Part shown: positions 1 to 64,000 of the stretch, in pieces
Position numbering within the stretch: position 1 is the stretch's first letter
Layout of the letters: each line of letters opens with the position of its first letter
Origin: a virus
Length of the DNA: 64,000 bases
IMG/VR virus record: IMGVR_UViG_3300025892_000010
Reading direction: 5' to 3' (one strand)
Position numbers and translations under genes: made by a program
Notes under the pieces: generated by a model
Databases searched by the model: none
What the model saw: only the letters and a program-made list of their open reading frames with translations
Told to the model about the DNA's origin: nothing

Positions 1-617
1 CCATCATACATTGAGGCACCTTTTGTATTACCATATAAACTTGTAGTCTCAAACATTACCAAGTTCATATCATACTTCTTATTTAATTTTTCTCTAACTT
101 CGTGAGAACAACATAAACCAGCTAACAATTTGCCACCTAGATAATTATAACCAAATGGTTGACAAGGTACAATTACAAAACCCATAATAGCTGTTTTGTT
201 AAATACTTTTAAATCGGGTACATTCCCCAATAAGTCATTTCGTGGTTTACAATTAATAACAGGACTACCAAAACGCATAAAGCCAACAAACTTATTTGTA
301 TTTTTTTCTTTAACTGCAAGTTTCAATGCCTTTCCAGGTATACTTACCATATTACTATGACTTGAAATCATATTGATACAATTATCCCAAGTGCTGTTGT
401 CTAGTTCAACAACTTCTAAATCCATCACCTCTGGTGACATTGTGAAATCATCAAACATATCTGAATCAAAACCCATACCAGGAAGTGGTTGTGCTATTGA
501 GTCTATTTGTGCCATCTTTTGGTCACGCATATACTGGTCAATACGACTAAATTGACCAAAGTAATCATTAAATATACCAGCACAATGTAGTGCTTCTTCT
601 CTAGTTAGGTTTTTCAT
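1..617 (-). CDS. DUF4338 (DruA-like) family protein, truncated at window edge; not in ORF track
   Basis: Hand translation from ATG 617: MKNLTREEALHCAG...IVPCQPFGYNYLGGKLLAGLCCS...FETTSLYGNTKGASMYDG; same PxQPxGYNxxGGKLLA and TTSLYG motifs as ORF 16340..17638. Confidence 0.75.
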   Translation of the reverse strand, partial: MKNLTREEALHCAGIFNDYFGQFSRIDQYMRDQKMAQIDSIAQPLPGMGFDSDMFDDFTMSPEVMDLEVVELDNSTWDNCINMISSHSNMVSIPGKALKLAVKEKNTNKFVGFMRFGSPVINCKPRNDLLGNVPDLKVFNKTAIMGFVIVPCQPFGYNYLGGKLLAGLCCSHEVREKLNKKYDMNLVMFETTSLYGNTKGASMYD

Positions 618-693
618 TATTCCACATTTTTAATAAGATTAGTGGTACACTATAACAGATAATTAGATATATGGCAACCAGTAAATATTCCAT
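601..693 (-). CDS. 30-aa hydrophobic peptide MEYLLVAIYLIICYSVPLILLKMWNNEKPN; not in ORF track
   Basis: ATG overlaps the thyX stop (TAATG); one TM-like stretch; fills the gap to the DUF4338 gene. Confidence 0.5.
   Translation of the reverse strand: MEYLLVAIYLIICYSVPLILLKMWNNEKPN
649..677 (-). promoter_or_regulatory. sigma70-type promoter for the DUF4338 gene
   Basis: TTGCCA-N17-TATAGT. Confidence 0.5.
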
Positions 694-1304
694 TATTTTA
701 ATAGGTGTTTTGCGCTTATTGGAAAGTGGTCTTTCAAATGCTTTTCAATATGCGTTGCAACAACTCTAGTCTCCGCTTGTGTATCTTCTTTGATTCTTAA
801 ATTAACAACTCTTGCAAAGGCCATTAAACTACCTGACCAATACCATTCTGTCATCATATTTTGAGGCAATACCATTCTTGCCATTTCTGGTGCTATGTCA
901 GCCTCTAACATTTCACTATAAAATTCTTTAGCTGTTTTAATTAAATCTGTAATATCGTATTCAACTTCCTCATCACTAGAGCCTTGTTTTTTATCCTCTG
1001 CTCTTTTACGCCATAGAAAAGGTATATAAAATTCTGGTTTATCATCTACGTATCTTCTACTTACTTCATTCCACACTAAACCAACTTGATGTTTTACTAA
1101 TTGACGTGCAACAAATATAGGTGCTTTGATTAAGAATTGTAAACTAGTATGACCAAAAGGCGACCAATGGTCGTGTTCAGCCAAATACTTAATTAGTTTT
1201 TCATCTTTCTCATCTATTTGTTCTTTTCTTTTAGCAAATGAAACACGAGCAGCGTTAACTACCGATAAATCACTACCCATTTTATCTATTAATTGTACGT
1301 TCAT
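693..1304 (-). CDS. thyX: Flavin-dependent thymidylate synthase
   Basis: VNAARVSF, HWSPF, ARQLVKH...NEVSRRY ThyX signature. Confidence 0.95.
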   Translation of the reverse strand: MNVQLIDKMGSDLSVVNAARVSFAKRKEQIDEKDEKLIKYLAEHDHWSPFGHTSLQFLIKAPIFVARQLVKHQVGLVWNEVSRRYVDDKPEFYIPFLWRKRAEDKKQGSSDEEVEYDITDLIKTAKEFYSEMLEADIAPEMARMVLPQNMMTEWYWSGSLMAFARVVNLRIKEDTQAETRVVATHIEKHLKDHFPISAKHLLK

Positions 1305-1858
1305 ACCTCATTACCCCAATAATCCCAATTTTTATATGGTTTGTTTCTAGCAAATAACTCTATGTAAGGACCACCAACTAACCTTTCAATCTCTTTATGC
1401 ATTAAAGGTTTCTTTGAGTGTTCTTCTCTTTGAGAAACTACTAATTGTTTTACGTCTTTAAAAATTCTTTTTGGTCTGCCTTTAGTTGCAAGTAAACACA
1501 TTTCGGGATTGCCTCTAGTCCAATAACCTAAACCGGTAAACATTCCCATATTTGTTTTATTTGTTTTTGCCCAAGTAAAACCTACGGTCTTGTATTGAAA
1601 ACCCCAAGCCTCTATAACATCAAATGCTAAATCTAACATAGGGTCAATTACCCACATTAATAATACAGAGTTGTCAGCTGATATATCCTTAACAGGTAAA
1701 TCGCATATGTCTTTTAGTTCCATACAATTATAGTGTTGATTAGGATTTCTGCCCTCACCTTTCTTTGACCTTGATTTAAAATACCAAGGTGGGTCGGCAT
1801 ATATCACACCATATTTTTTATTTGGAAAGTTTATATTCAAAGTTTTGTGTCTCATCAT
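1301..1858 (-). CDS. MT-A70 family N6-adenine methyltransferase
   Basis: IYADPPW catalytic motif, GLGYWTRGNPE, HSKKP, YIELFAR. Confidence 0.9.
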   Translation of the reverse strand: MMRHKTLNINFPNKKYGVIYADPPWYFKSRSKKGEGRNPNQHYNCMELKDICDLPVKDISADNSVLLMWVIDPMLDLAFDVIEAWGFQYKTVGFTWAKTNKTNMGMFTGLGYWTRGNPEMCLLATKGRPKRIFKDVKQLVVSQREEHSKKPLMHKEIERLVGGPYIELFARNKPYKNWDYWGNEV

Positions 1859-2309
1859 TTATATGTACTTGTTTTGCACCATTTTTAATATGAAAATGTG
1901 TTGCCATTGGTGTTAATGGTGATAAAGTAACCAATCTTTTAAAATTATTTTCAATAGCCCACTCTCTTAATTTTATAATTATCTCTTTACCTGCACCTCT
2001 TTTTCTTGACCAAACGGTGTATGCAATAACAATTTCGCCTCTTTGACCATCTTGATTGGCCGCTTGAGACATATAATCCATTTCTCTTACCGTATATGGT
2101 ACTTCAGGACATAATGCAACACAAACAATCGCCTCAATTTCTTCATTATATTTTAGACCAAATATTTTTCTGCCGTTTGTAATTCTAAAACCTAAAGTTA
2201 ATTCTGGTCTAACAGGATCCTCTGACACATCTATGTCATCTAGTTCAACCAGTTCGGTGCCTTTTACCCATTTAAAAAAATCATCTATGTTATCTTTAAA
2301 TTTTTTCAT
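1818..2309 (-). CDS. GNAT-fold-like protein (start probably MKKFKD at 2309)
   Basis: YTVWSRKRGAGKEII resembles GNAT motif A; ATGA overlap with the gp43 stop. Confidence 0.5.
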   Translation of the reverse strand: MKKFKDNIDDFFKWVKGTELVELDDIDVSEDPVRPELTLGFRITNGRKIFGLKYNEEIEAIVCVALCPEVPYTVREMDYMSQAANQDGQRGEIVIAYTVWSRKRGAGKEIIIKLREWAIENNFKRLVTLSPLTPMATHFHIKNGAKQVHINDETQNFEYKLSK

Positions 2310-4795
2310 CCAAAAAATGCCTCTAAATTTGCCTTTGGTTCGTGTTCCCAACCGATTGCTTGTAATATAAATCGCATAGGATCCAAAAAGGTCTTTTCAA
2401 ATTGTGTATCTCTATCTATATATTGGTCTAGTTTAAACTCTTTTGGCAAACTAGTAATATAACTTATTACATCAAACTTAAATGGATTGGCTGGTATTAG
2501 TTTAATAAACTTAATCTTATCTCCTTCTTGTATAAAAGGAAACTTGTTTTGTAAACCAAACTCTTTTATTTGATGATTATATATCAACGCACCTTTAACG
2601 TGAATAGGTGTACCTTTGATAAAGATGTTTGCATTATCACGATACTTCTTCAAGTTATTACAACTTCTAGGAAAGGCAATTGACTCTGCTGGTAACGTCA
2701 TAAATTCTTTTCTAAAATCAGAAACTAACTTATGTAAATCTGTTTCTTCTTTTGACATAATAGTTTTAATTGCTTCTTTAATTTTAACTCTACAAACCTG
2801 TGGTGTTGATGATTTAACTGCCTCAATACCCATAAGTTTAAGTTTAGGGTCAGACAATCTAATGCCTTCTTCATCAATAACGTTTAACATATATCTTTTC
2901 TTCGCAACCCATATACCTTTGTTGGCAATAACTTCTCGTTTCATTACCATTGCATTTTTAAAAGCGTTTGAATAATCAGATAGTTCAGCAAACCATTTTT
3001 CAATTTCAGGCTCTAATCTACTATCACATACTCTACCTATAAAGTCTGTAATCTGGTCGTTTGTTTTACCTTGACAAGTTTTTTCTACAAGTTTATCCAA
3101 GGTTACGTAAATTGAATCTGTATCAGACGCAACAACATAATCTATTTTATCTTTTGTCTGTAATACTCTATTTAAATAATCATTCATTTTACCTTCAATG
3201 AAACGAATAATAAACTGACCTGCCGTGGTAATACCACTTGCCTGTCTTACATCATAGTATCTAAAATATTGGTTACCTACTGCACCATAAGCCGAGTTCA
3301 AGGCAATCTTTCTTGCCCATTGAATATTGTGACAACGAGATATTTCTTTTACCAGTTTAGGGTCTTTTGTTTTTTCATATTCTTTCTTTGCCTTTAACAT
3401 ACGTTTCTTATAAATGACACGTTCATTGTACATTGTTTCCATCATTTCAGGTAAGAAACCTTGACTATCATTTTTAAATTTTGCACCGTTTGGTGTAATA
3501 CAAGCACCCTCTGTTTTAAGATAATTAAGTGGTACTTTCATATCAATCATTTTATTAACATTGACGCCGTGACCACTTTCACCAAGTATTTTTTCTGGCG
3601 AAATATTGTATTGAATAATAATATGTGGATATAGTGAGTTAATATCAAACGATACCACCCATTTGTGCTGACCAACTTTAGGTTCTTTTACGTAAGCACC
3701 CTCATACTTTGTTAACTTAACATTGTCTTCTCTTGGTGGTACACATATCTTCTTCTTCATTAAATGGTTTGCAATCAATGTGTCCCATACTCTTACTTGC
3801 GAAAATATATCATCATAGTTTACTTTTGATTCATATGCAACGGTCAATGATAAGTCAATTAGACCTAGTTTATCTTCTAATGCGTCAACAATTTCTACGT
3901 CTTGAATATTGTAATCAATAAATGATTGAAAGTCTTTAGTATACCATTCTTTAAATGTATCGTATGGCATTTCATCTTTACCACGGCCAAGTTCTAGTTC
4001 ACCAATAAAATCTAGTCTATAACTTTCTTGTCGTGTAGGAATAAACCATTTATATAAGTCAAGGTAATCTAACATAGTAATACCAAACAACTTATAAACC
4101 GTTTGTGGTCTACCTCTTACAACAATCTCCTCACGATTAACTAAATTCCAAGGCGACATTCTATTTGCAACTTTATCGCCTGCAATCAGTTTAATTCTAT
4201 TCATCAAATAAGGTAAGTCAAAAAACTTGGTGTTCCAACCTGTGACAATATCTGGATGATTTTTAATCCAGAATTTCATAAACTCAAACATCAATTGTTT
4301 TTCATTTTTACAATAAACATAGGTAACATCTGGTCTATCTGTCTTGTATTGACCAACACCCCAAGTTATGATTTGTTTATTAGATTGATTTTTTACCGTG
4401 ATAGCCAACAACTCTTCAATAGGATTTTCTACATCTGGAAAACCATTTTCACAACTAGTTTCAATATCAAGTGTGAATATTTTAATATGTTCTTTTGAAA
4501 ATTCTATTGCTTCAGGATAATTTTGACCAATGTACTGATAATGGTATCTTTCAAGGCCATATAGTGGCGATTGTGCGCCATAGTCTTTTTTAAATTGACG
4601 TGCATTTCTAATATCATTAAACTTTATAGGTTTAAGATATTGTCCTTGTAAGGTTTTAAATTCTGTTTTTTCTGTTTGCGATAAGGCGTAGAGGGTTGGA
4701 CCAAAATCAATTTTTTCTTTGTAATCTTTCCCATTCATCACACCACGAATAAGAAGTTTACCTTTGTGTTCTATTACATTTTTATAAAAGTTCAT
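2306..4795 (-). CDS. gp43: Family B DNA polymerase
   Basis: DIET exonuclease motif, SFDINSLYP, KIALNSAYG, SDTDS, C-terminal clamp-binding LEAFFG. Confidence 0.97.
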   Translation of the reverse strand: MNFYKNVIEHKGKLLIRGVMNGKDYKEKIDFGPTLYALSQTEKTEFKTLQGQYLKPIKFNDIRNARQFKKDYGAQSPLYGLERYHYQYIGQNYPEAIEFSKEHIKIFTLDIETSCENGFPDVENPIEELLAITVKNQSNKQIITWGVGQYKTDRPDVTYVYCKNEKQLMFEFMKFWIKNHPDIVTGWNTKFFDLPYLMNRIKLIAGDKVANRMSPWNLVNREEIVVRGRPQTVYKLFGITMLDYLDLYKWFIPTRQESYRLDFIGELELGRGKDEMPYDTFKEWYTKDFQSFIDYNIQDVEIVDALEDKLGLIDLSLTVAYESKVNYDDIFSQVRVWDTLIANHLMKKKICVPPREDNVKLTKYEGAYVKEPKVGQHKWVVSFDINSLYPHIIIQYNISPEKILGESGHGVNVNKMIDMKVPLNYLKTEGACITPNGAKFKNDSQGFLPEMMETMYNERVIYKKRMLKAKKEYEKTKDPKLVKEISRCHNIQWARKIALNSAYGAVGNQYFRYYDVRQASGITTAGQFIIRFIEGKMNDYLNRVLQTKDKIDYVVASDTDSIYVTLDKLVEKTCQGKTNDQITDFIGRVCDSRLEPEIEKWFAELSDYSNAFKNAMVMKREVIANKGIWVAKKRYMLNVIDEEGIRLSDPKLKLMGIEAVKSSTPQVCRVKIKEAIKTIMSKEETDLHKLVSDFRKEFMTLPAESIAFPRSCNNLKKYRDNANIFIKGTPIHVKGALIYNHQIKEFGLQNKFPFIQEGDKIKFIKLIPANPFKFDVISYITSLPKEFKLDQYIDRDTQFEKTFLDPMRFILQAIGWEHEPKANLEAFFG

Positions 4796-5108: not shown

Positions 5109-5422
5109 TATAGTTTAGGCAGATTAGTTTCTGTTATTAGACCAGGTTTTGAAGTAATAATCTCACTAATATTATGTTCGTAAGATTTTAAAATATCTGG
5201 TTTAGGCGTTGCAATTGTAATTACTTTGCTACAATCTATTGTCAGAGTTCTATCATCTGTATATGGCATCCACGGAGTTAAAATCAATTGTACTGGTTTT
5301 CCTGGCTGTGATTGCATTGGTATGATAGTAAAAGGTTTCTTAATAGAAACAACTTCTCCTTCTTCAACTTCACCTATAATATCTTCACCTGTTTGTAGTC
5401 TCATTATTTTTATATTTTTCAT
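5108..5422 (-). CDS. Conserved T4-like hypothetical protein, possibly Sm-like fold
   Basis: IKIMRLQTGEDIIG N-terminus, similar to ORF 22346..22792. Confidence 0.6.
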   Translation of the reverse strand: MKNIKIMRLQTGEDIIGEVEEGEVVSIKKPFTIIPMQSQPGKPVQLILTPWMPYTDDRTLTIDCSKVITIATPKPDILKSYEHNISEIITSKPGLITETNLPKL

Positions 5423-5457: not shown

Positions 5458-6838
5458 TGCTGTATTTGGTTGTTATCACGTATTTTCTTTGGGGATTGAC
5501 CATAACGTTTAATCTCTTCATAAATGCACGGTCTAATAAGATAGGAGTTCTATCTTCTCTATCGTCAATGGTAAATTCTACATCTTTATAGAAACCACCG
5601 GCAAATTCTACATCTAGTTTTACGACATATCGGTCTTCATCATAATCTCTTAAGCCACCAACTTTAATCTCTTCTTTACGGACAATATCACTTGTAATAG
5701 TTTTACCTAATAAAGACCAAGTTATTTTATTACCATTGATTTTGTATTTGTCAGAGTGAATTACTGGCATTCCAGAATTACCCGTATCAAATTTTGAAAT
5801 TAATTCACCAAACGGTTTTATGGTCAAAATCTCCTTAAAACCACATTCCGTTGGCACAGAATATCTATTCTCCTCATTTGCAAAATGTTTAATTACTTCT
5901 TTTGCAATATTCATTTTAGTTGCTTCTTCTATACCCTCTGTACCAGGTGAAGAGTTTACTTCAAGAAAATATGGTGGTTTGTTTACTCTGTCTTTACTTG
6001 GTATAAAGTCAACAGCAGTCCAATATCCACCAACTGCCTTTGAGGCTAATAAGCATTGTTCTATTTCTAATTCTGTTAGTTTAATATTTTCTGGTTTAGA
6101 ACCTTGCGATACATTTGACCTAAAATCTCCTTCAATTACAGGTCGTTTCATAGCCGCTAAAAATTTACCACCTAGTATATGTACTCTGACATCATATTCT
6201 GTTTTAATATATTCTTGTATTAATAAATCTGTGTCTTCATCTTGTTTGTGTATAAGTTGTACAATAGAATCTAAACCTTTTGGACTATCTACAAATAAAA
6301 CACCAACACCTTTTGACCCTCTTAAAGTTTTCATAATTAAAGGAAACTTAATACCTGATTCATCAACTATCTCATTTGATTTTTCGGGGTCATTAATTAG
6401 TTTTGTTTGAGGTTGTGTTAGACCATAATCTGCAAGTCTTAATGAAGTTCTATATTTGTCAGCACACATATTAATTGTAGTTCTAGGATTTACCAACGTT
6501 GCATTGGCTCTTTCTAATATAGATACAAAGTCTAACCAACTATCTTTACGTGTAATAGAACCACGAACAATAGCAACGGTCATAGCACCAACTTCAAAAC
6601 CTTTTTTATCATCTTGATTATGAAATTTACGGATGCCGTCTTCGTAAGTGGTATAGCCACCTGTAAGTTTAAAAAGATAATATGGATAATTTAACTTATC
6701 ACATTCCTCTTTCAACCTATCGGCAGTATGAAATTCTTTTGCATTATCTGGCTCATCTGTAATAATGAGCAAACGCAAAAAGTCCTTTTTAGCCTCTGTT
6801 ATGTAATCTTTAAACTTGCTTACCTGCATTGCCTTCAT
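5450..6838 (-). CDS. RimK-like ATP-grasp ligase fused to a C-terminal retropepsin-like protease domain
   Basis: DKYRT, GSKGVGV, LIQEYI, DFRSNVSQG, LEVNSSPG; C-terminal KFDTG and ILLDR. Confidence 0.8.
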   Translation of the reverse strand: MKAMQVSKFKDYITEAKKDFLRLLIITDEPDNAKEFHTADRLKEECDKLNYPYYLFKLTGGYTTYEDGIRKFHNQDDKKGFEVGAMTVAIVRGSITRKDSWLDFVSILERANATLVNPRTTINMCADKYRTSLRLADYGLTQPQTKLINDPEKSNEIVDESGIKFPLIMKTLRGSKGVGVLFVDSPKGLDSIVQLIHKQDEDTDLLIQEYIKTEYDVRVHILGGKFLAAMKRPVIEGDFRSNVSQGSKPENIKLTELEIEQCLLASKAVGGYWTAVDFIPSKDRVNKPPYFLEVNSSPGTEGIEEATKMNIAKEVIKHFANEENRYSVPTECGFKEILTIKPFGELISKFDTGNSGMPVIHSDKYKINGNKITWSLLGKTITSDIVRKEEIKVGGLRDYDEDRYVVKLDVEFAGGFYKDVEFTIDDREDRTPILLDRAFMKRLNVMVNPQRKYVITTKYSID

Positions 6839-9413: not shown

Positions 9414-9487
9414 TGGAGCGGCTAGTAGGTAACGCTCCTACGTCTGCGAGTTGGTAACCCGCCGTAATACTTTTATACGATAGCCGC
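9414..9487 (-). tRNA. tRNA-Gly with ACC anticodon and encoded CCA
   Basis: Acceptor GCGGCTA/TAGCCGC, discriminator T then CCA, anticodon arm GCGGG-TTACCAA-CTCGC, T arm GTAGG-AGCGTTA-CCTAC. Confidence 0.85.
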
Positions 9488-13526: not shown

Positions 13527-15803
13527 TTAAGCAACCTCCTGTATGAATTTGTTTAAAACTACTCTTGAAGTGATTCGGTTCTTCATAGAACCAGCAAACA
13601 ATCTTTTTAATTCACTAGTAGTTCCTTTCTTAACGGTAGCATCCTGCATATTAAAGTTCTCAACATTCATAGCTTTACCATTGATTAAGAAATATTTGTT
13701 ATATCCAAACTTATCAACAACAACTGCTTTTTCTTTAGTCATTTGTTTTCTCATAGCTAGATATTTTTTGTCTCTATCAAAATAGTCTTTAGCGTCAACA
13801 TATCTTTCTAGGTCCCATCTTCTAATTCTTTTTAGAATATAAAAACCAATAGTGTTTACATCATAAGTATGTTTAATATGTTCTAATATCATACCAGTAA
13901 GGTTTTCATCTGAATCTTTTTTGACTAATTTTTTCTTACCAATCATATATACTTTTTCAGTAGACCAATCATAATCTTTATTGTCACCAAAAACTTTACC
14001 TCTCATACCATTGGCACCACCATCTGTTAGAGTAATAAAAGTCATCTTCTCAATACCATATTTTTTCTTAAACATTGGTACCAATTCATTACAATAAACT
14101 AAAGCTTCGTTTAATGGTGTATTACCTAAACTGAATTCGCTTGGTATACCATAAGCAGAGGGCTTATTATGGTCATAGTCTCTATAACCTCTACCATAAT
14201 TAGACTTGTAATAATCTCCCATATGGTACATATACATCATAGATAAATCTAATTGTCTTTTAGTCATTTTGTGGCTGGCAACATTAACTAAATTAAAGTT
14301 TTCAAAATACCAATCACCATCTTTATATGTAAATGACTTATCATAACCAGTAGAATCAGACATATATTTTCTTTCACTAGTAAAGAAGTAAACCTCAAAA
14401 GGTATATTAACTCTTCTAACAAACTCTACCAAGTTAATTAATTGTTGTATGGTTTCACTCAATACATCTGACATAGAACCTGACCAATCAAGCAACATCA
14501 TCATACCGTGGTTTTTACCATCAGGAACAATAGTCAATCTTTTGAATATGTCATCACTATGTTTGTATTTTGGCAATTTTAATGGGTCAATAATACCAGT
14601 TTTATCTGTACTTGCTCTCTTATAAGCAGTAGCGGCTTTTTTCATTTCAAATTCTTTTACAAGATATGATACCGTTTTTTTATTATCTTTGATAAACTTT
14701 TTGTAATCATTTAATAACCACTTATCATATGAAGCTGTATTAGTATAACTTCTCGCTTTGACTTTTTCTTTTTCAAAAGCTTTTAAGAAATCTTGGTAAG
14801 AAGTCAAACCGTCTTTAAAGTTTGCTTTTGGAATATTACCATAAGTATAACCTTTAATGTCTCTGTTTAATAATTCTGTATGTTTATTATCAAAAGCTTC
14901 CTGTGTAACCGCTTTAAGTAATTTACCATTATCAAAATCACCACCAGCACCAGGTCCATAATGAGAAGACTCTTCTTTATTTTTATCTTTCTCATCTGAT
15001 TTTTTACCCTCTTCAAGGTCGCCATCTTGGTTAGCAGACTTTTCACTATCTGCTTTTTCATCACCAAAGTTATTGAAATCATTTTTTTCATCAGCGTCAT
15101 CACTTGACTCATCTGATTCTTGATAAGCATTTGATTCTTCTTCATCATCAAAATCATCTTCATCATTACCAAGGTCATAATTTTTAGCAATAACGTGATT
15201 GTCAAAATCTGGTAACTTCTTCATTTGCTCAACTTGTTTTTTCTGCCAATCAATTAACTCTTTGGCCAAAGCAACGGTATCAGCAAACGTTTTGATAGCG
15301 TCAACTTTAGCCAACCATTTTTTATCATCAGGAGCAAATATGAATGGTAATCTGTTTAATGATTTACTTCTCATATTAATTTTGTCAATTAACATAAGGT
15401 CTTTATTAATATCTTTACCTAGTAAACCAAAGAAATTCTTTTTATCTAATAAATCAAAACCGTTTTGATAGTTTCTAACAACACCAGGATATTTGTTTTG
15501 AATTAACTTGTCAATTCTAGTATCTTCAAGGACATTAACATATGCTCTTAATTCTTGGTCATCACATATTGAAGACCATTCTTCATATGGTGTCCATAAA
15601 GCGTGAGCACATTCGTGAGCAATTAACATATCATACACATCACCTTTTTGTTCTTTAAAAATAGGTAATGTTAGTACACGATTCTTTACATCAAAAGAAG
15701 CTGTCTTAACTTTGTTGTGTTGGATTATTATATTCTCTGTAGCAATTAGTTTTGCTAGAGTGCCTTTTACATCAAGATTTATCATAGTGTTGTCCTTTTT
15801 CAT
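13527..15803 (-). CDS. CobT-like protein: HExxH domain, acidic linker, vWA domain (true start may be 15785)
   Basis: HECAH, NVLEDTRI, LLDWSGSM MIDAS, TPL, LTDG; adjacent to the MoxR ATPase. Confidence 0.82.
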   Translation of the reverse strand: MKKDNTMINLDVKGTLAKLIATENIIIQHNKVKTASFDVKNRVLTLPIFKEQKGDVYDMLIAHECAHALWTPYEEWSSICDDQELRAYVNVLEDTRIDKLIQNKYPGVVRNYQNGFDLLDKKNFFGLLGKDINKDLMLIDKINMRSKSLNRLPFIFAPDDKKWLAKVDAIKTFADTVALAKELIDWQKKQVEQMKKLPDFDNHVIAKNYDLGNDEDDFDDEEESNAYQESDESSDDADEKNDFNNFGDEKADSEKSANQDGDLEEGKKSDEKDKNKEESSHYGPGAGGDFDNGKLLKAVTQEAFDNKHTELLNRDIKGYTYGNIPKANFKDGLTSYQDFLKAFEKEKVKARSYTNTASYDKWLLNDYKKFIKDNKKTVSYLVKEFEMKKAATAYKRASTDKTGIIDPLKLPKYKHSDDIFKRLTIVPDGKNHGMMMLLDWSGSMSDVLSETIQQLINLVEFVRRVNIPFEVYFFTSERKYMSDSTGYDKSFTYKDGDWYFENFNLVNVASHKMTKRQLDLSMMYMYHMGDYYKSNYGRGYRDYDHNKPSAYGIPSEFSLGNTPLNEALVYCNELVPMFKKKYGIEKMTFITLTDGGANGMRGKVFGDNKDYDWSTEKVYMIGKKKLVKKDSDENLTGMILEHIKHTYDVNTIGFYILKRIRRWDLERYVDAKDYFDRDKKYLAMRKQMTKEKAVVVDKFGYNKYFLINGKAMNVENFNMQDATVKKGTTSELKRLFAGSMKNRITSRVVLNKFIQEVA

Positions 15804-16339: not shown

Positions 16340-17638
16340 TTATCTTCCTACCTGTGTTAAATATTTTGATTTACATTCTTCCCAAGACATATAGATAATA
16401 TCATCATAGAAATGTGTCTCTTTAGATACTCTGTCTTGTTTCTTTAAACTAGCCAATCTCTTCTTGGCGTACTTGTTCTTCCATAAATCAGTTAATGCTT
16501 CTACTGAATTGTCAAATTTTCTTATTAATTTGTCTTCTTTTATTTCTTCTCTTAAAAATTCTCTAGTATTTTCGTATAATTCACCAAAGTATATGCCTCT
16601 AGCGTGTTCAGACTTTATAAGTTTCTTATCTATACCTAGTTTATTATATGTAAATGTATGACTTCTATTTCTATGGTCTCTTTTATGTGGTTGACCTGTG
16701 TCTTTCTTTGCAACATACCATTCAAAGTATTTGTAAGTGTGTTGTTTCTTTAACCAGTTTTGTATCATCATTCTAGTTGGTTTTAATGGTTCATATGAAA
16801 CTGAACCAGCAGTCCAACCCATTTTCTTCCAGTTTTTAAGTCTATCATATTGTGATAATGGTATTGTTTTTGTTTTACCATATAGACTTGTTGTGGTTAC
16901 ACCTACTAGTTTATCTTTATATTGATATTCCCAGGTCTTTTCTACCGTATCTGATAGACATAGTAAAGCTAGTAGTTTCCCACCAACCAGGTTGTATCCA
17001 AGCGGCTGTATTGGTACAATTGTACTTCCGATACACGTATGATTAATCATTCTTTGCGTCTTGGCCTCACGTTCCCAGCCAATGTAATTGTCTCTAGGTG
17101 TAAGGTCTAGGAAATCACTAGACATACAGGTAACACCAAGTAATTTCTTTGTTTTCTTATCTCTAATTAAAAAGTTTAAATTTCTACCAATATTACTATT
17201 GTTTTTCATAGTAGATAAAAACGTTCTCATACCATTCCAGATTGCTGGCATATTGGCACCAGTAATAGATTTTACATCATCACCATCTGTCCATAATAAT
17301 TCAGGTTCTAAATTTAAGTATTCTTCGGGGTCTTCAGGCAACCAGAAATTGTTTTTAATCTCTTGTAGTAAAGCGCCTTGTTGTGGATTTTTAAGTGCTG
17401 GTTTATCATCAAAGAAACTATTTGTTTCTGCTGTAGGATATTTGTCGTGTACCTCACACCATTTTTGATATAAAGTATATTCTTTTACATCCATTTGAGA
17501 TACATAAGATAAATCTTTAATGATTGTTTCTTTTAATGTATCTGTATCTATATCTGGTATTTTGTCTAATGGATTGTGTTCTTGCCAACTTTCCCATTGG
17601 TCGTCAATAGACATACCTTTTTTCCACGAATAAGCCAT
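16340..17638 (-). CDS. DUF4338 (DruA-like) family protein
   Basis: GRNLNFLIRD, PRDNYIGW, IVPIQPLGYNLVGGKLLALL, TTTSLYG, SQYDRL. Confidence 0.7.
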   Translation of the reverse strand: MAYSWKKGMSIDDQWESWQEHNPLDKIPDIDTDTLKETIIKDLSYVSQMDVKEYTLYQKWCEVHDKYPTAETNSFFDDKPALKNPQQGALLQEIKNNFWLPEDPEEYLNLEPELLWTDGDDVKSITGANMPAIWNGMRTFLSTMKNNSNIGRNLNFLIRDKKTKKLLGVTCMSSDFLDLTPRDNYIGWEREAKTQRMINHTCIGSTIVPIQPLGYNLVGGKLLALLCLSDTVEKTWEYQYKDKLVGVTTTSLYGKTKTIPLSQYDRLKNWKKMGWTAGSVSYEPLKPTRMMIQNWLKKQHTYKYFEWYVAKKDTGQPHKRDHRNRSHTFTYNKLGIDKKLIKSEHARGIYFGELYENTREFLREEIKEDKLIRKFDNSVEALTDLWKNKYAKKRLASLKKQDRVSKETHFYDDIIYMSWEECKSKYLTQVGR

Positions 17639-29816: not shown

Positions 29817-30614
29817 TTAATGTCCGTTTGTATCTGAATTATAAAATAAACGACCACTAAAATCTGTTGTTTTACTAATACTAGGTCCTGAAAAACTGAA
29901 AACAGCCGTACCAGGTCCTGTATGATTACCAAATACTGCAAATAATTTATAGTAATTATCTTGTTCTAAATAAAAATTACCACTTCTTTCAGTAGCTCCG
30001 TGTTTACCACCATTATCAACTACAGCATTTGATAAATTAATACCAACTGGTGGATTATCTGCTGAACCACCTAAAAATAAATAACTAGCGTCATCACTAT
30101 TAATAAAAAAAGTAAATGTACCAGTTGCTGGTGCTTTAAAATAACCTATCATAGTATAAGAGGTATTTTCAGGCACCGTTGCACTTCTACTAATACTAGT
30201 CACCGTTGTTGTGGCACTAGGTGATTCTGAACCAGTAAAGTAAGCGTCATATGAAGTTTGGTCATCATAAGGGGTTGTAGTATCAAAAACATATGCACTA
30301 TAAGTTCTTTCAACTGCACCTGCAGCTAAAGTTAAACTATCAGTATCTTCACTACCAACTACTGGCGAACCAGAATAGATTGCTTTATCTGTTGATAATG
30401 AATGAGCAGGTTGTTTTTCAATAACAACTTCCTCACCAACATTTACCAATAAAACAGAACCAATATTAGCATCCGTTTCATCCGTTAATGTTACCGTTGT
30501 ATTAGCATTTACATTAACAAGTTTAGCAAAATGTCTTTTGTTCATATCATTATTAACTAATTGACCTGAAGCGGCTACATCTTTTGCTATAAACCTGTTG
30601 TCTGTATAACTCAT
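29817..30614 (-). CDS. PA14-domain virion protein
   Basis: GYFKAPATGTFTFFINSDDASYL...VVDNGGKHG PA14 signature. Confidence 0.75.
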   Translation of the reverse strand: MSYTDNRFIAKDVAASGQLVNNDMNKRHFAKLVNVNANTTVTLTDETDANIGSVLLVNVGEEVVIEKQPAHSLSTDKAIYSGSPVVGSEDTDSLTLAAGAVERTYSAYVFDTTTPYDDQTSYDAYFTGSESPSATTTVTSISRSATVPENTSYTMIGYFKAPATGTFTFFINSDDASYLFLGGSADNPPVGINLSNAVVDNGGKHGATERSGNFYLEQDNYYKLFAVFGNHTGPGTAVFSFSGPSISKTTDFSGRLFYNSDTNGH

Positions 30615-33238: not shown

Positions 33239-35158
33239 TTAACCTGCAACTTCGTCAAAGCTGACGCCAGTTCGTGTTGCGATAAATTGTAAAGTAATAA
33301 AGTTAATGCTTCTAGCAGGTTTCACAAAGATTTCTGCTATGAATTCATTTCTGTCAATTACTTCACCTGTGTTATTAGTTTCATCACAGACTACTAAAAA
33401 GTCTGTAATACCTCTTCTACCTTGTACTTCTCTTAAAAAAGGTTCTACAATGTTTCTAAAGTTAGCTCTTGTAAATTCATCATTGAATTCAAAAAGTTGG
33501 AATTTAGAAGCAGTTGCTATTGCCTTCTCTAAAGTGATAAACAATCTTCTTACGTTGATTCTATCAAAAGCACTTGGAGCAGATAATCCAGTTTTGTCTC
33601 CGAAAAGAACCGTACCTTGTCCAGGGAACGTTGCAACAGGATTAACTCTTGCTCTGTATAGTTCGTCTCTTTGAGCTTTAGTTGGATTAAACGCAAGTTT
33701 AACAGCGCCTCTAACTATACCTCTATTGAAGCCGGCTGGTGAGAACCAAGCGTCTGCAATAAGGTCAGTTCTTGCTGAAAGACCTGCAATGTCTCCGTTT
33801 AATGGTACAAAACGATATACGTCATTGTATCTGTCGTATGTGTATTTGTAACCACTATCAAACACAATGTAAGATGATGAATTGATTTGATTAAAGAAAT
33901 CAATTACATTACTCTTTTGTGTGTTAGCGTTAGCAACACCCACAACATCACTTCTTTCAGGACTTGCAAATACAACAGAGTCTTTTCTGTTTTCTGCAAT
34001 CGTGATTAGATTGTCAATGTGTGTTTTGTCGCCAGCACCTGCTATGATAAGACCAACATCAACCGTTTCGCCATCAGCAAATTTTTCATATGCTGATTTC
34101 TTTTGGCCAGTAGTTGCTGTAGTTCCGTCAGAACCAGATTGTAATGATACATTAGAAACAGCAGTCACGTCTGTGAAAGTTGTTCCTGAAGCCGCATTAC
34201 CCCAGTTTGAACCTGAAGGATTGTGATCCATCCAGTAGATGTAGTTAGATGATTTATATATTACGTCAATATAGTAGTTTACAGAACCTTGAGAAGTTTT
34301 AGCGTCTGAAGCTTTTGAAACTGCTTCAAATTTTTCTAATACTTCGCCTTTAGTTCCTGATATTGCACCATCTTCGTCTATTACGATTATATGTATTTCG
34401 TCACCTGAACCACCTCTTGCTTGTGCAAATGGTGATGTTCCTGGTGCCTTGTCAAATAATTCGTAATGTCTCCATCTTCTTCTTACTTGAGCGCCGTTAG
34501 TTGGTGCTTCGTGTAATCCTGAAGAGTTAGTTGTTGCATAAAAAGCAGGCTCTTCTTTTCTAACAATTGATAAATCGTTAGTTGCTTTGCCCACTACTCT
34601 ATATTCATACTCACCACCAAAATTTACTATGTCGCCGATTTCTATTCCTGCCGCTGAAGCAACGGTAACAACCGTATCACCGACAGCCATAGCGGCGTCA
34701 GCAACGGTAGTTTTGTTTACTTCTTCGTAAGCTGTAGCAGAGGCACATTGAGAAATCTGTAAAGAGTTTCCGAAAGCGCCTGGTGTTCTAGCAGCCCACA
34801 TTCCAACAGAAGCAGAACCGTCAGCATAGTTATTTGTATAGTCAGTAGTATTCTTTATTATAAACGCTGAACCACTTTCGGTTGCGTTTGATACAGATGA
34901 ATTCTGTACACGGACTACTCTCAAAGCATTAGAATATTGTAAAAAGTTAGCAGCACTAAAAAAGTCTTCAAAGTTAGAATTATTAGGCTTACCGAACGTA
35001 GATACAAGTTCTTGCTCACTAGAAATACTTACTACTTCATCTAAAGGACCTTGCGTGAAAGTTCCAGCAAAGGCTCCTATTGATGTAGATACAGCAGGTA
35101 TAATTCTTGTTAAGTCTTTTTCCTGTACGAGAACACCTGGTGATACTTGAAATGCCAT
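33239..35158 (-). CDS. gp18: Tail sheath protein
   Basis: SPGVLVQEKD, WFSPAGFNRG, FDRINVRRLF, KPARSINFI. Confidence 0.97.
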   Translation of the reverse strand: MAFQVSPGVLVQEKDLTRIIPAVSTSIGAFAGTFTQGPLDEVVSISSEQELVSTFGKPNNSNFEDFFSAANFLQYSNALRVVRVQNSSVSNATESGSAFIIKNTTDYTNNYADGSASVGMWAARTPGAFGNSLQISQCASATAYEEVNKTTVADAAMAVGDTVVTVASAAGIEIGDIVNFGGEYEYRVVGKATNDLSIVRKEEPAFYATTNSSGLHEAPTNGAQVRRRWRHYELFDKAPGTSPFAQARGGSGDEIHIIVIDEDGAISGTKGEVLEKFEAVSKASDAKTSQGSVNYYIDVIYKSSNYIYWMDHNPSGSNWGNAASGTTFTDVTAVSNVSLQSGSDGTTATTGQKKSAYEKFADGETVDVGLIIAGAGDKTHIDNLITIAENRKDSVVFASPERSDVVGVANANTQKSNVIDFFNQINSSSYIVFDSGYKYTYDRYNDVYRFVPLNGDIAGLSARTDLIADAWFSPAGFNRGIVRGAVKLAFNPTKAQRDELYRARVNPVATFPGQGTVLFGDKTGLSAPSAFDRINVRRLFITLEKAIATASKFQLFEFNDEFTRANFRNIVEPFLREVQGRRGITDFLVVCDETNNTGEVIDRNEFIAEIFVKPARSINFITLQFIATRTGVSFDEVAG

Positions 35159-58608: not shown

Positions 58609-58617
58609 ATTTTATCC

Positions 58618-59442: not shown

Positions 59443-59506
59443 TTCAATTCTCCTTCTTATACTATTATTTATATGATAAATACTAGTAGATACTGGAGAA
59501 AATATA

Positions 59507-61402: not shown

Positions 61403-62004
61403 CCTGATATATCATATTCACTTAATCTAATTTTATTAGGATTTTTATGATGAATATTATGGTGTCCTTCACCAGCAGATAACAAGTTAATAAAATAATT
61501 TGTTACCGGTTTTTCATCTTTATGACCTAATGCATTGAACAAACCATAACTAATAAAGCCTAATACTAAAGGTGATAATACAAATATAAAAAATACTTGA
61601 AAACTAATTAGTGATGTAGCAACTGCCGTGGCAATATGCAATTTTAACCAATGTTTATGAAAAAACATTATTCTAGGATTTCTATATAAATCTTTAACGA
61701 ACCCTCTATCTATTTTTTCAACTTTCCAATTATTTAAAAGAACGTTCCAGAAACCTTTGTGAGTTGGAGAGTGAGGGTCTTTTTCTGTATCTGAAAATTT
61801 ATGATGTATTCTGTGAGCACCAATCCAACCTACTGGCGACCTAGAGAAAGCCAGCATAGATAAAAACAATGAAATGACTTCAAATGTTTTACTTGTTTGA
61901 AATTGATTATGTGCGAAACGTCTGTGAAGACCGATAGATAAACCAAATATAGCAATCAATTGATACCATATAAAGCCTAGTACCAGCATAATTATGATGG
62001 CCAT
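61375..62004 (-). CDS. Membrane fatty-acid desaturase (delta9/DesC-like)
   Basis: His boxes HRRFAH, HRIHH, HHNIHH; DPHSP. Confidence 0.9.
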   Translation of the reverse strand: MAIIIMLVLGFIWYQLIAIFGLSIGLHRRFAHNQFQTSKTFEVISLFLSMLAFSRSPVGWIGAHRIHHKFSDTEKDPHSPTHKGFWNVLLNNWKVEKIDRGFVKDLYRNPRIMFFHKHWLKLHIATAVATSLISFQVFFIFVLSPLVLGFISYGLFNALGHKDEKPVTNYFINLLSAGEGHHNIHHKNPNKIRLSEYDISGWIIERCLK

Positions 62005-62007
62005 TTT

Positions 62008-62298
62008 TTACTCTTCGGTTTCTAATATAATATTGTTAAGACCACAATATGTATTTCTGCCTGCTCTACTATCTATTGATACATCTTCATTTAAAAAGTT
62101 ATCAAGGGCATTAGTATCTTTAAATGTAAATGTCATAGTTTTTTTCAAACCATCAGCTGACTCTTCATTTAAATTATAACTTTCAATTTCTCCAGCCGCT
62201 ACTAATTCATCTAGTCTAGTAATTACTTCAGCACCTGGCGTAAAGAATCCTACTGCTATATTAGGTCTAGTTTGTTTTACTCTGTTTATAATGCTCAT
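62008..62298 (-). CDS. Hypothetical protein
   Basis: Clean ORF 5 nt downstream of TATAAATA. Confidence 0.6.
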   Translation of the reverse strand: MSIINRVKQTRPNIAVGFFTPGAEVITRLDELVAAGEIESYNLNEESADGLKKTMTFTFKDTNALDNFLNEDVSIDSRAGRNTYCGLNNIILETEE

Positions 62299-62306
62299 AT
62301 GTTTAT

Positions 62307-63101
62307 TTATACTCCTTTTACAAATAGTTTTTCCGATACTATCTCATTTACAGGCTTGCCAAATAATTTATTTCTGGTATACTCACAGGTGTTGTGATTC
62401 AAGTCCAACCAAGGAGTAATTCCTATAACCAAATTAATTCTAGGTTGTTCGTTTTCAACTTTCTTGACAATGGTAGCCCGGTGTGGTTTTCTTGTATTCC
62501 AAAGATAAACTTTTCCAATTTCCAATTTATACGTCTTGTCTGACCACTCTATAACATATTCATCACTTGTTTGTAATGGTATGTTAATTCTTAACAATTG
62601 ACAGGTTGGTTCATCTACGTGCCAGCCTCTATTGTTTGGTTCTTCACCATATCCAAAAATATAGGCAACCCGACTTCTCGCCATCGGAAAATTAAATTTT
62701 TCTAAAAAGAAACCAAGATGTTCTTTTATTACTTCATCTATCTTACAAAAACCAAACGTATCGTGATAAGTGTCCTTTAGTTGTTTGTGTTCACCTGCGC
62801 CTTTTTCTAATCCAAAATATTGTGTTGTTAAAGGCGACCCCCATACTTGACCATATCTACTCTGTTCTTTGTCTATAAAGTTAGGATTATATGTTAATCC
62901 AAAACCTTTATATTTTTCGTATGTGAAATCTTTTGTTTTCCAAGGAGATAAACCGACTTTAGATTCTATCTTTTTTACAGCTTCTAATATGTCTTTTGCT
63001 GGTGGTAAGTTTAATTCTTCTAATGTAAACTCTTGCCAACCAAAATTATCCTGTTTATCGTCTGTACCATCAAATAGCTTTTTCACTTCATTTATAACCA
63101 T
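62307..63101 (-). CDS. Asp/Asn beta-hydroxylase-like 2OG-Fe(II) oxygenase (true start MVINEV at 63101)
   Basis: WHVD, RINIPLQT, WNTRKPHRA, RINL. Confidence 0.7.
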   Translation of the reverse strand: MVINEVKKLFDGTDDKQDNFGWQEFTLEELNLPPAKDILEAVKKIESKVGLSPWKTKDFTYEKYKGFGLTYNPNFIDKEQSRYGQVWGSPLTTQYFGLEKGAGEHKQLKDTYHDTFGFCKIDEVIKEHLGFFLEKFNFPMARSRVAYIFGYGEEPNNRGWHVDEPTCQLLRINIPLQTSDEYVIEWSDKTYKLEIGKVYLWNTRKPHRATIVKKVENEQPRINLVIGITPWLDLNHNTCEYTRNKLFGKPVNEIVSEKLFVKGV

Positions 63102-63106
63102 ACGGA

Positions 63107-63120
63107 TATTTATATAAATA
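63107..63120. promoter_or_regulatory. Palindromic bidirectional late promoter
   Basis: TATTTATATAAATA reads TATAAATA on both strands, with an ATG 5 nt away on each side. Confidence 0.7.
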
Positions 63121-63125
63121 GTGGA

Positions 63126-64000
63126 ATGATTAATATAGTATGTACCAGTAAGCCTGGTGATGGATTGCTTTGTTATAGTTATGAGCATTGTTGTTATTTA
63201 AATTCTATTGGCATTAAAAGCCAAGTGGTAATTATCACACATCACAACTTTACAATACAAAATTATATAGACTCAATAAATGAGAAATATAAGACCTATG
63301 AAAATGTGGTCTTTAACTCATATTCTCCAACTATGGAAGAAATTACTTTGATTATGGGTAGAAGTATGTTGACACTATCATATATCAATAGAAAAGATTA
63401 TACAAACGACCAAATGTTAACTCTACATCTACTATTTGGTTGCAAACTTATATCTGTTTATTCTGAAAATCACGTCAAAGAATATCCATTAGCTTTAGAA
63501 CATTACAATCCAAAAGAAGTCTATGACTTATGCGATTGGGACGTTTACCCCAATGGTGTTGGTGCTCAATATGAAAAAATGATTAATTTTGAAGAGTATA
63601 AACCAGTAAAAAATGACGTACAATTTGAGTATCTATTTTTAGGCACAAATAACGTGTATTATAAAGAGGTAGATAGATGGATAAAAGAGTGTCCTAATTG
63701 TTTTAAATCACACGGAATATTGACATATGACGAGGATTATACTATAATGGATTACAATAATATAATTGCGCCTGTTCATAACTTATTAGGTCTTTTTAAC
63801 ACTTATGTTTATACAAAGAACTATTATGACCCAGCGCCAAGACTTATACAAGAATGTAAATGGTTGGGTAAAAATATAGAATATTTGAGAGATAAAAATA
63901 TAAAAGATGGCGGTCCTGTTTATATGAAACGGCCGGTGCCTACAAAAGAAATGTACAAAGAGAACGCAAAAGTATTAGTAGATTTAATTAAGAGTATATA
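63126..64000 (+). CDS. Hypothetical protein, possibly glycosyltransferase-like; runs to window edge; not in ORF track
   Basis: Hand translation MINIVCTSKPGDGLLCYSYEH...YDPAPRLIQECKWLGK...; open to 64000. Confidence 0.65.
   Translation, partial: MINIVCTSKPGDGLLCYSYEHCCYLNSIGIKSQVVIITHHNFTIQNYIDSINEKYKTYENVVFNSYSPTMEEITLIMGRSMLTLSYINRKDYTNDQMLTLHLLFGCKLISVYSENHVKEYPLALEHYNPKEVYDLCDWDVYPNGVGAQYEKMINFEEYKPVKNDVQFEYLFLGTNNVYYKEVDRWIKECPNCFKSHGILTYDEDYTIMDYNNIIAPVHNLLGLFNTYVYTKNYYDPAPRLIQECKWLGKNIEYLRDKNIKDGGPVYMKRPVPTKEMYKENAKVLVDLIKSI

What the first reader, a model, noticed from the sequence alone, without database searches (positions are those of the whole stretch)
1..64000. Avoidance of GATC, GCATC, CATG, ACWGT and TCGA, with surviving sites overlapping GGAT
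By-eye scan, not a count. GATC is scarce: the copies I found (about 2216, 2380, 13113, 26587, 32607, 42441, 44184, 45581) are all GGATCC, plus one TGATCC at about 34225. Every GCATC/GATGC I found (about 5266, 6632, 13639, 26737, 27918, 30469, 35298, 36507, 41501, 44612, 46697, 51706) is GCATCC/GGATGC. I found no CATG, ACAGT/ACTGT or TCGA, while synonymous escapes (ACGGT/ACCGT, CACG, GACGC) are conspicuous for an AT-rich genome. Inference: host restriction pressure purged these sites except where a phage enzyme, perhaps the MT-A70 methylase at 1301..1858, modifies the A in GGAT and protects them.
Basis: partly seen in the sequence, partly recalled or inferred. Interest (0 to 1): 0.7.

Follow-up and report, generated by a model that had tools for sequence, protein, structure and literature searches.

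The report
Restriction-site purge with a GGA exemption

Summary
The window is a T4-like pelagimyophage, about 80% identical to Pelagibacter phage Mosig. Observed versus synonymous-codon-shuffle expectation: CATG 0/112, TCGA 0/83, ACWGT 0/100, GATC 9/134, GCATC 12/81. CATCG, CASTG, CTWAG, CTCAG, TCTAGA and AGTACT are also depleted.

Eight of nine GATC are GGATCC. All twelve GCATC are GGATGC.

The loss is real evolution: 0 of 80 Mosig CATG sites persist, mostly through third-codon-position changes. About 100 metagenomic relatives carry different on/off sets of avoided words.

The exemption is wider than GGAT. In HTVC008M all 83 GATC and all 43 surviving GANTC carry GGA, followed by A, C or T. 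So three unrelated restriction words are spared only when their adenine follows GG.

HTVC008M has no MT-A70 and none of the six DNA-methylase families searched, so MT-A70 is not needed. The phages with a clean exemption share a DruA/DUF4338 protein. Its model is a GNAT fold whose best solved match is phage Mu Mom, the Gly-tRNA-dependent adenine modifier. They also share an odd tRNA-Gly-like gene.

The writer and the chemistry are inferred, not shown. This scan noted a similar DruA-like idea on another marine phage.

The parts
1..64000 (.). Window-wide depletion of CATG, GATC, TCGA, ACWGT, GCATC, CATCG, CASTG, CTWAG, CTCAG, CAGGG, CGCG and several 6-mers
   Evidence: Markov and synonymous-codon-shuffle expectations
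2215..2220 (.). Surviving GATC inside GGATCC. The other seven start at 2379, 13112, 26586, 32606, 42440, 44183 and 45580.
   Evidence: Four of the five sites in aligned genes sit at the same position in Mosig.
34224..34229 (.). The only one-sided survivor, TGATCC (GGATCA on the other strand)
5266..5271 (+). Surviving GCATC as GCATCC. The others start at 13639, 27918, 30469, 36507, 41501, 44612, 46697 and 51706. The same word on the other strand, GGATGC, starts at 6631, 26736 and 35297.
16340..17638 (-). DruA/DUF4338-family protein (432 aa), the leading candidate writer of the GGA-context modification
   Evidence: Pfam DruA E = 6e-22. AlphaFold model has pLDDT 93.6. Residues 106-376 form a GNAT fold whose best solved match is Mu Mom 8bv8_B, Z 9.4. 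'Mom' of a Salmonella phage is the first hit with a functionally relevant name in the viral library. The RGVY motif aligns with Mom's insertion.
3..617 (-). Second DruA-like paralogue, which runs off the window start. It is the orthologue of HTVC008M gp122, which sits right after the DNA polymerase gene.
   Evidence: Pfam DruA E = 8.5e-9 and phrog_19197; tblastn
1301..1858 (-). It looks intact, but it is not required for the exemption.
   Evidence: Pfam E = 1.8e-25. Nearest solved relatives are ciliate MTA1 and METTL3. Absent from HTVC008M.
1818..2351 (-). 177-aa ORF between the polymerase and MT-A70 genes, with a weak GNAT signal. It is a minor candidate and is absent from HTVC008M.
   Evidence: Pfam Acetyltransf_1 E = 0.013, below cut-off; tblastn
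9414..9487 (-). Non-canonical tRNA-Gly-like gene. Its anticodon is ACC, its T-loop is AGCGUUA, its D-loop has no GG, position 73 is U and CCA is encoded. It is a possible glycyl donor for a Mom-like enzyme (speculative).
   Evidence: Rfam tRNA 45.2 bits. ARAGORN finds nothing. Orthologues occur in Mosig, HTVC008M and many contigs, with 8 covarying pairs.

Best explanation
The phage lineage has been selected to lose the target words of many sequence-specific DNA enzymes; restriction nucleases are the likeliest agents. The loss came mostly through synonymous codon changes, and each sub-lineage purged its own set of words.

On top of this, the phage DNA carries a context-specific protective modification at 5'-GGA-3'. 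It most likely sits on N6 of the adenine. Target words whose critical adenine follows GG (GGATC, GGATGC, GGANTC) are therefore not cut and are not purged.

One modified strand is enough for GANTC and GCATC, and for GATC in HTVC008M. In the window/Mosig clade GATC needs both strands, so only GGATCC survives.

The most likely writer is the phage's DruA/DUF4338-family GNAT protein (16340-17638, with a paralogue at 3-617), working like phage Mu Mom. It is not the MT-A70 methylase.

Shown: the depletion, the flank rule, its conservation across relatives, and the fold. Inferred: that a modification exists, which base it is on, its chemistry and its writer.
For: Depletion and flank rule in the window.

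The loss is real evolution. 0 of 80 Mosig CATG sites are kept, against 36-41% for control 4-mers, and the replacements are diverse and mostly at third codon positions.

The same rule holds in relatives:
- Mosig: GATC 19/19 as GGATCC; GCATC 20/33 in GGA context.
- HTVC008M: GATC 83/83 (p = 2e-53), GANTC 43/43 (p = 5e-28), GATGC 14/23.
- 50 non-redundant GATC-avoiding IMG/VR loci: GATC 36 observed against 973 expected, of which 32 are GGATCC.
- 962 kb pooled: GGATCC is at 1.3x expectation, and the other NGATCN at 0.08x or less.
- 9 GANTC-avoiding loci: 38/41 survivors are GGANTC.

T is not required after GGA. As sole protector, GGAA occurs 6 times, GGAC 11 and GGAT 16.

HTVC008M has no match to MT-A70, N6_N4, D12, C5, Dam or N6_Mtase and none to TGT/DpdA.

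The DruA-like protein is present in the window, Mosig, HTVC008M and the G003 clade, all of which show the exemption. It is absent from Melnitz (GATC 13/23 in GGA, weak) and from L065 (2/12).

Its fold is GNAT. Mom is the top solved match at Z 9.4, rmsd 3.9 A, 168 residues. 'Mom' is the first hit with a functionally relevant name in BFVD. RGVY aligns inside Mom's essential insertion. One cyanophage homologue was annotated 'methylcarbamoylase mom' by its depositors.

Mom modifies N6 of dA in a short loose context and blocks many restriction enzymes (PMC13219725).
Against: - No direct evidence that the DNA is modified.
- The link between DruA and the exemption is confounded by shared ancestry.
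- Mom tops ordinary GNATs by under 1 Z unit, and the profile comparison with Mom is not significant overall (probability 1.3%).
- One DruA-positive contig (L234) has 3 surviving GATC outside GGA.
- Melnitz lacks DruA and MT-A70, yet it shows a weak enrichment (13/23 against 31% expected, p = 0.01).
- A cytosine modification of the paired TCC would fit the flank data equally well.
- HTVC008M has two generic SAM methyltransferases of unknown substrate.
- The nucleases that would exert the pressure were not found in SAR11 genomes.
Confidence: 0.5

Rival explanations
1. One reading: the MT-A70 enzyme (1301-1858) methylates the A of GGAT, and this m6A protects the overlapping GATC and GCATC sites.
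For: MT-A70 is intact with a DPPW motif. It is carried by 47 of 50 GATC-avoiding relatives. A 185-aa core with no separate recognition domain fits a very short motif; its nearest solved relative, ciliate MTA1, acts on ApT (own knowledge).
Against: HTVC008M lacks MT-A70 yet has GATC 83/83 and GANTC 43/43 in GGA. T is not required after GGA. 19 of 21 GATC-tolerant relatives also carry MT-A70. L065 has a 55%-identical MT-A70, and only 2 of its 12 surviving GATC are in GGA.
Confidence: 0.12
2. There is no modification. The nucleases that drive the purge do not cut when a G precedes GA (for example an HGATCD-type specificity), so those contexts are simply not under selection.
For: Melnitz has neither DruA nor MT-A70 but shows weak GGATC enrichment. 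Enzymes that exclude one flanking base exist, for example PspXI VCTCGAGB (own knowledge).
Against: Three unrelated words (GATC, GATGC, GANTC), cut by unrelated enzyme families, would each need the same flank exclusion. The one-sided versus two-sided difference between clades is easier to explain by hemi- versus full modification.
Confidence: 0.15
3. The protective mark is on the other strand or comes from another source. Either a cytosine in TCC (m4C or m5C) or a guanine is modified, or a host enzyme rather than a phage enzyme does the modifying.
For: The C paired with the second G of GGA lies inside all three words. m4C is the commonest mark in marine myovirus genomes, and novel GATCC and SATC marks occur in marine microbes (PMC8919816).
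Against: HTVC008M has no N4/N6 or C5 methylase and no TGT/DpdA. The cognate protective methylation of GATC and GANTC is on the very adenine that follows GG (own knowledge). SAR11 methylomes published so far show only GANTC/GAWTC (PMC9516812, PMC8919816).
Confidence: 0.1
4. The selecting nucleases are the phage's own, or those of competing phages, and are used to shred host DNA. The phage genome is purged of their targets rather than of host enzymes' targets.
For: SAR11 is reported to have almost no restriction systems (PMC7029224, PMC9516812). Neither DpnII nor MutH/Sau3AI nucleases were found in the 401 SAR11-family genomes searched. The avoided sets switch on and off between close relatives, as accessory genes do.
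Against: More than ten words are avoided at once. No candidate phage nuclease was tied to any word, because this was not tested. D12 adenine methylases occur in 26 of 401 SAR11 genomes, and one R-M-like cassette was found. A 2026 preprint finds R-M genes enriched in SAR11 islands (10.64898/2026.04.03.716430).
Confidence: 0.08
5. Artefact: systematic base-calling errors at methylated motifs, or an assembly artefact, removed the words.
For: Several over-represented 'escape' words differ from the avoided ones by A to G or T to C.
Against: The replacements are diverse (TATG, CACG, CTTG, AATG, CATA and others), sit at third codon positions and are mostly synonymous. The same pattern occurs in independent contigs from many metagenomes and in three cultured, separately sequenced phages.
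Confidence: 0.01

Closest known systems
Restriction-site (short palindrome) avoidance in lytic phages; GANTC depletion in pelagiphages (Seong et al. 2022, PMC9516812)
   Same: Target words are lost genome-wide, mainly by synonymous changes. The avoided words look like Type II and IIS recognition sites.
   Different: More than ten words are purged at once, four of them to zero. The avoided set switches between relatives that are 80-98% identical. The survivors obey one flank rule (GGA). Only GANTC depletion had been reported for pelagiphages in the papers I found.
Phage Mu Mom (GNAT-fold, Gly-tRNA-dependent N6-carbamoylmethylation of dA; PDB 8bv8; PMC13219725)
   Same: Both show a short, loose adenine context and protection against several unrelated restriction enzymes. 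The candidate writer has a GNAT fold with Mom as its best solved match, and it shares RGVY inside Mom's DNA-binding insertion.
   Different: The context is GGA (about 1.9% of A) rather than SAS (about 20%). The protein is twice as long, with an extra N-terminal helical part, and has no significant sequence-profile match to Mom. Protection is partial and is combined with wholesale site loss. The chemistry is unknown.
DruA (PF14236/DUF4338) of type I Druantia defence
   Same: Pfam match above the cut-off for both paralogues.
   Different: Here the gene is phage-encoded, in two copies, beside replication genes. I did not test whether Druantia partner genes are present. No function for DruA was found in the papers searched.
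Phage orphan adenine methylases (T4 Dam; Hia5/EcoGII-type non-specific enzymes, PMC3299994)
   Same: A phage-encoded adenine modifier that blocks host nucleases. MT-A70 is present in the window.
   Different: The exemption persists in a relative with no such methylase.

Membership tests
Restriction-site avoidance | Word counts far below Markov and codon-aware expectations | tested here: met
Restriction-site avoidance | Sites are removed mainly by synonymous, third-position changes relative to a close relative | tested here: met
   0 of 80 CATG kept against 36-41% for controls
Restriction-site avoidance | The host lineage encodes nucleases for the avoided words | tested here: inconclusive
   Neither DpnII nor MutH was found in the 401 SAR11-family genomes searched. 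D12 methylases occur in 26 of them, and there is one methylase-methylase-542 aa cassette of unknown specificity. The host of this phage is not known.
MT-A70 (PF05063) N6-adenine methyltransferase | Pfam match above the cut-off and a DPPW catalytic motif | tested here: met
   90.3 bits against a cut-off of 23.9; DPPW is in the translation
MT-A70 (PF05063) N6-adenine methyltransferase | Acts on DNA at GGA or GGAT | not testable with these tools
   Comparative evidence argues that it is not needed
Mom-like GNAT DNA adenine modifiers | GNAT fold | tested here: met
   Model pLDDT 93.6. 228 chains score Z >= 5; GNATs fill the 50 rows shown, aligned over residues 106-376
Mom-like GNAT DNA adenine modifiers | Closer to Mom than to other GNATs, including Mom's HTH-like insertion | tested here: inconclusive
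   Mom ranks first at Z 9.4, with the next hit at 8.8. Mom is the first hit with a functionally relevant name in BFVD, E = 0.025. There is a local RGVY match inside the insertion.
Mom-like GNAT DNA adenine modifiers | Sequence-profile homology to Mom | tested here: not met
   hhalign probability 1.3% over 16 columns
Mom-like GNAT DNA adenine modifiers | Modifies dA in a short context and uses Gly-tRNA-Gly | not testable with these tools
   There is only a footprint (the GGA rule) and a conserved odd tRNA-Gly-like gene
DruA (PF14236) | Pfam match above the cut-off | tested here: met
   78.6 and 35.4 bits against a cut-off of 27
DruA (PF14236) | Sits in a Druantia operon with DruB-E | not tested
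   The neighbours are phage replication and mazG genes

The most novel reading that the evidence does not exclude
Pelagimyophages, and some cyanophages and giant viruses, use DruA/DUF4338-family enzymes as Mom-like, aminoacyl-tRNA-dependent writers of an adenine hypermodification at GGA. A dedicated non-decoding tRNA-Gly supplies the glycyl group. This would give the first function for the DruA family, and it would imply that type I Druantia marks self DNA in the same way.
Probability: 0.25. Interest if true: 0.9.

Novelty: new variant of a known kind. Interest (0 to 1): 0.72.

Why it matters

A phage lineage that has erased more than ten restriction-type words, with sets that differ between near-identical relatives, implies strong, diverse and fast-changing nuclease pressure in that system.

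The GGA rule is a purely sequence-based footprint of an undescribed DNA modification in cultured phages (Mosig, HTVC008M), so it can be checked directly.

If the DruA-like protein is the writer, an orphan protein family of a widespread bacterial defence system gains a function, and Mom-type chemistry extends beyond Mu-like phages.

Tried and rejected
- Base-calling or assembly artefact: rejected.
- Coding constraint as the cause of GGATCC survival: rejected. All three reading frames have synonymous exits, and codon shuffling expects only 4.2 copies.
- GGATCC as a functional element: it is not over-represented beyond about 1.3-2x. Its positional conservation (4 of 5 sites) fits flank-locked neutral sites.
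- Specificity of MT-A70 from names or structures: thousands of unnamed marine homologues and only eukaryotic solved relatives.
- Supplementary tables of the marine methylome paper: not held.
- 7-deazaguanine route: no TGT/DpdA found.
- AGCT survivors in HTVC008M as a way to tell A from C modification: no GGA enrichment, so uninformative.
- Synechococcus phage S-B68 (DruA-like positive) as an independent test: it avoids RGCY, not GATC or GANTC, so the GGA rule cannot be read there.
- Odd tRNA-Gly as an obligate partner of DruA: not found in S-B68 or in three more distant DruA-positive contigs, so the link is only suggestive.
- No whole genome is held for this window.

Full report
**Identity of the window**

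The window has 33.8% G+C and nearly all its genes lie on the minus strand. It matches Pelagibacter phage Mosig EXVC030M over 85% of a 20-kb query at 79.5% identity. It matches HTVC008M and the OM43 phage Melnitz more weakly. Gene order and content are those of a T4-like pelagimyophage of the Kyanoviridae. No whole genome is held for the window.

**The observation**

The table compares observed counts with an order-1 Markov expectation and with 100 shuffles of synonymous codons within genes. The shuffles keep every protein and each gene's codon usage.

| Word | Observed | Markov expected | Codon-shuffle expected |
|---|---|---|---|
| CATG | 0 | 222 | 112 |
| GATC | 9 | 152 | 134 |
| TCGA | 0 | 118 | 83 |
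| ACWGT | 0 | 175 | 100 |
| GCATC | 12 | 59 | 81 |

- The z-scores against the shuffles run from -11 to -16.
- GGATCC (8 observed, 4.2 expected) and GGATGC (12 observed, 9.3 expected) are not depleted.
- An unbiased scan adds CATCG 4/51, CASTG 1/46, CTWAG 9/75, CTCAG 10/50, CAGGG, CGCG, TCTAGA 0/22, AGTACT 0/13, CTGCAG 2/16 and GAATGC 1/13.5.
- The 'escape' words are in excess: ACSGT z = 4.6, CACG z = 5.3, GACGC z = 8.7.
- GCATC is followed by C in 12 of 12 cases, against 6% for other CATC.
- Eight of nine GATC are two-sided GGATCC (p = 3e-14).

**It is evolution, not artefact**

In 37 codon-aligned orthologue pairs with Mosig, none of 80 Mosig CATG sites is kept in the window. Control 4-mers are kept at 36-41%. 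The replacements are diverse (TATG, CACG, CTTG, AATG, CATA), mostly at third codon positions and mostly synonymous. The same holds in reverse for ACGT, which Mosig lacks entirely. Independent metagenomic contigs 98% identical to the window show the same zeros (L011, L156).

**A mosaic of avoided sets**

- Mosig avoids ACGT (0/247), GATC, CASTG and CGCG, but not CATG.
- HTVC008M avoids TCGA, GANTC, GATC and CASTG.
- Melnitz avoids GGWCC and GATC.
- About 100 non-redundant IMG/VR contigs have DNA polymerases 80-98% identical to the window's. Among them, CATG, TCGA, ACWGT, ACGT, GANTC and GATC each switch between 'absent' and 'normal' in many combinations.

In the papers I could search, only GANTC depletion had been reported for pelagiphages, and it was called puzzling because SAR11 seems to lack restriction systems (PMC9516812; also PMC7029224).

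**The exemption rule**

- Mosig: 19 of 19 GATC are GGATCC, and 20 of 33 GCATC are GCATCC.
- 50 GATC-avoiding contigs (402 kb): GATC is 36 observed against 973 expected. Of these, 32 are GGATCC, 3 are one-sided and 1 is neither.
- 962 kb pooled: GGATCC is at 1.3x expectation, and the other NGATCN at 0.08x or less.
- 21 relatives that tolerate GATC show no clean rule: most of their GATC sites (155 of 269) lie outside GGATC.

HTVC008M is decisive.

- All 83 GATC have GGATC on at least one strand (28 on both), against 23% expected (p = 2e-53).
- All 43 surviving GANTC are GGANTC on at least one strand (p = 5e-28).
- The base after GGA in sole-protector sites is A (6 times), C (11 times) or T (16 times).
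- Nine GANTC-avoiding contigs of the Mosig type give 38 of 41 survivors as GGANTC.
- Genomes that tolerate GANTC give 7-16%.

The rule is therefore 'the adenine follows GG', not GGAT. It applies to three words cut by unrelated enzymes. In GATC and GANTC, the adenine concerned is the one their cognate methylases protect (established knowledge). GGA makes up about 1.9% of all adenines.

**Who writes the mark?**

*MT-A70.* The gene at 1301-1858 is intact, with Pfam E = 1.8e-25 and a DPPW motif. It is very common in marine metagenomes. Three facts argue against it as the writer.

- HTVC008M has no MT-A70 and no N6_N4, D12, C5, Dam or N6_Mtase match. It has only two generic SAM methyltransferases.
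- GATC-tolerant relatives also carry MT-A70.
- The unrelated contig L065 has a 55%-identical MT-A70, and only 2 of its 12 surviving GATC are in GGA.

So MT-A70 is neither necessary nor, at that distance, sufficient.

*DruA/DUF4338-family proteins.* This is what the phages with a clean exemption share. The window has one at 16340-17638 and one at 3-617. Mosig has one, HTVC008M has two, and the more distant G003 clade has two. Melnitz has none even by profile search, and it shows only a weak bias (13 of 23 against 31% expected, p = 0.01).

An AlphaFold model built on 60 homologues (pLDDT 93.6) gave these results.

- Residues 106-376 form a GNAT fold.
- In a search of 48,161 solved chains, the top match is phage Mu Mom (8bv8_B, Z 9.4, rmsd 3.9 A, 168 residues), followed by ordinary GNATs at Z 8-8.8.
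- Foldseek finds GNATs only weakly.
- In the viral library, the hits with E <= 0.001 are uncharacterised proteins of giant viruses and uncultured phages, and the first functionally relevant name is 'Mom'.
- A profile comparison with Mu Mom is not significant overall. It aligns the family's near-invariant RGVY with QRGVY inside Mom's essential HTH-like insertion (PMC13219725).
- Among 50,697 phage records, only pelagimyophages and four Synechococcus myophages have homologues. One of these was annotated 'methylcarbamoylase mom' by its depositors.

Mom puts a glycine-derived group on N6 of dA in a loose context, using Gly-tRNA-Gly, and it blocks many restriction enzymes (PMC13219725). This matches the kind of footprint seen here. 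I used it as a lead and re-derived the fold evidence here.

*A possibly linked RNA.* At 9414-9487 (minus strand) lies a tRNA-Gly-like gene.

- ARAGORN misses it, but Rfam scores it at 45 bits.
- It has anticodon ACC, glycine identity elements, an encoded CCA, a T-loop AGCGUUA and a D-loop without GG.
- Orthologues exist in Mosig (annotated there as a small CDS), in HTVC008M and in many contigs. Eight of 21 pairs covary, and position 34 varies between A, U and G.
- This would suit a glycyl donor that does not decode.
- However, it is missing from Melnitz, from S-B68 and from three other DruA-positive contigs. The link is therefore only a suggestion.

**Who exerts the pressure?**

In a sample of 401 SAR11-family genomes I found no DpnII-type and no MutH/Sau3AI-type nuclease. 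D12 adenine methylases occur in 26 of them. One genome has a methylase-methylase-542 aa ORF cassette that looks like a Type IIS system. A 2026 preprint reports R-M genes enriched in SAR11 genomic islands (10.64898/2026.04.03.716430). Rare but diverse host systems are therefore plausible. Phage-borne nucleases remain an untested alternative, and the host of this particular phage is unknown.

**Verdict**

It is wrong in two details: the context is GGA rather than GGAT, and MT-A70 is not required.
- That a modification exists, what its chemistry is, and that DruA writes it are all inferences.
- These inferences are directly testable on two cultured phages.

Noticed in passing
window 9414-9487 (-); L001 7779-7852 (-); L005 41140-41213 (+): A conserved non-canonical tRNA-Gly-like gene with anticodon ACC (UCC or GCC in relatives), an aberrant T- and D-loop and an encoded CCA. 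ARAGORN misses it. In Mosig it is annotated as a 31-aa CDS, and in HTVC008M it is not annotated.
   Followed up: partly
IMG/VR loci L010-L235: Close relatives (polymerase 80-98% identical) carry different all-or-none combinations of avoided words (CATG, TCGA, ACWGT, ACGT, GANTC, GATC, CASTG). This implies rapid turnover of the selecting enzymes.
   Followed up: partly
window-wide: CATCG/CGATG is about 12-fold depleted (4/51). It is also rare in Mosig and HTVC008M but not in Melnitz. I know of no enzyme with this site.
   Followed up: no
L245 (Synechococcus phage S-B68, 1-50000): This DruA-like-positive cyanophage strongly avoids RGCY (AGCT 9/160, AGCC 26/316, GGCC 28/156). RGCY is the commonest m4C motif reported in marine myovirus genomes (PMC8919816).
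   Followed up: no
L376 4428-7946 (a SAR11-family genome): Two tandem D12 adenine methylases are followed by an overlapping 542-aa ORF with no Pfam family. This is a likely Type IIS restriction-modification cassette in SAR11.
   Followed up: partly
L001 1-232 and L003 end (Mosig record): The Mosig record starts inside its MT-A70 gene, and the C-terminal 100 residues are nowhere in the record. The deposited 'complete genome' therefore lacks some sequence.
   Followed up: no
model of window 16340-17638: The DruA-like fold has clear structural homologues in giant viruses (Faunusvirus, Yasminevirus, Dasosvirus; Foldseek E from 1e-9 to 3e-20).
   Followed up: no
window GANTC sites: In the window, where GANTC is only mildly depleted (104/173), GGANTC makes up 7% of sites against 23% expected. 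This is the opposite of the bias seen in GANTC-avoiding relatives, and it is unexplained.
   Followed up: no
window 29817-30614 (-): A 265-aa protein with PA14/GLEYA carbohydrate-binding domains sits inside the head gene block. It has no counterpart in Mosig or HTVC008M.
   Followed up: no
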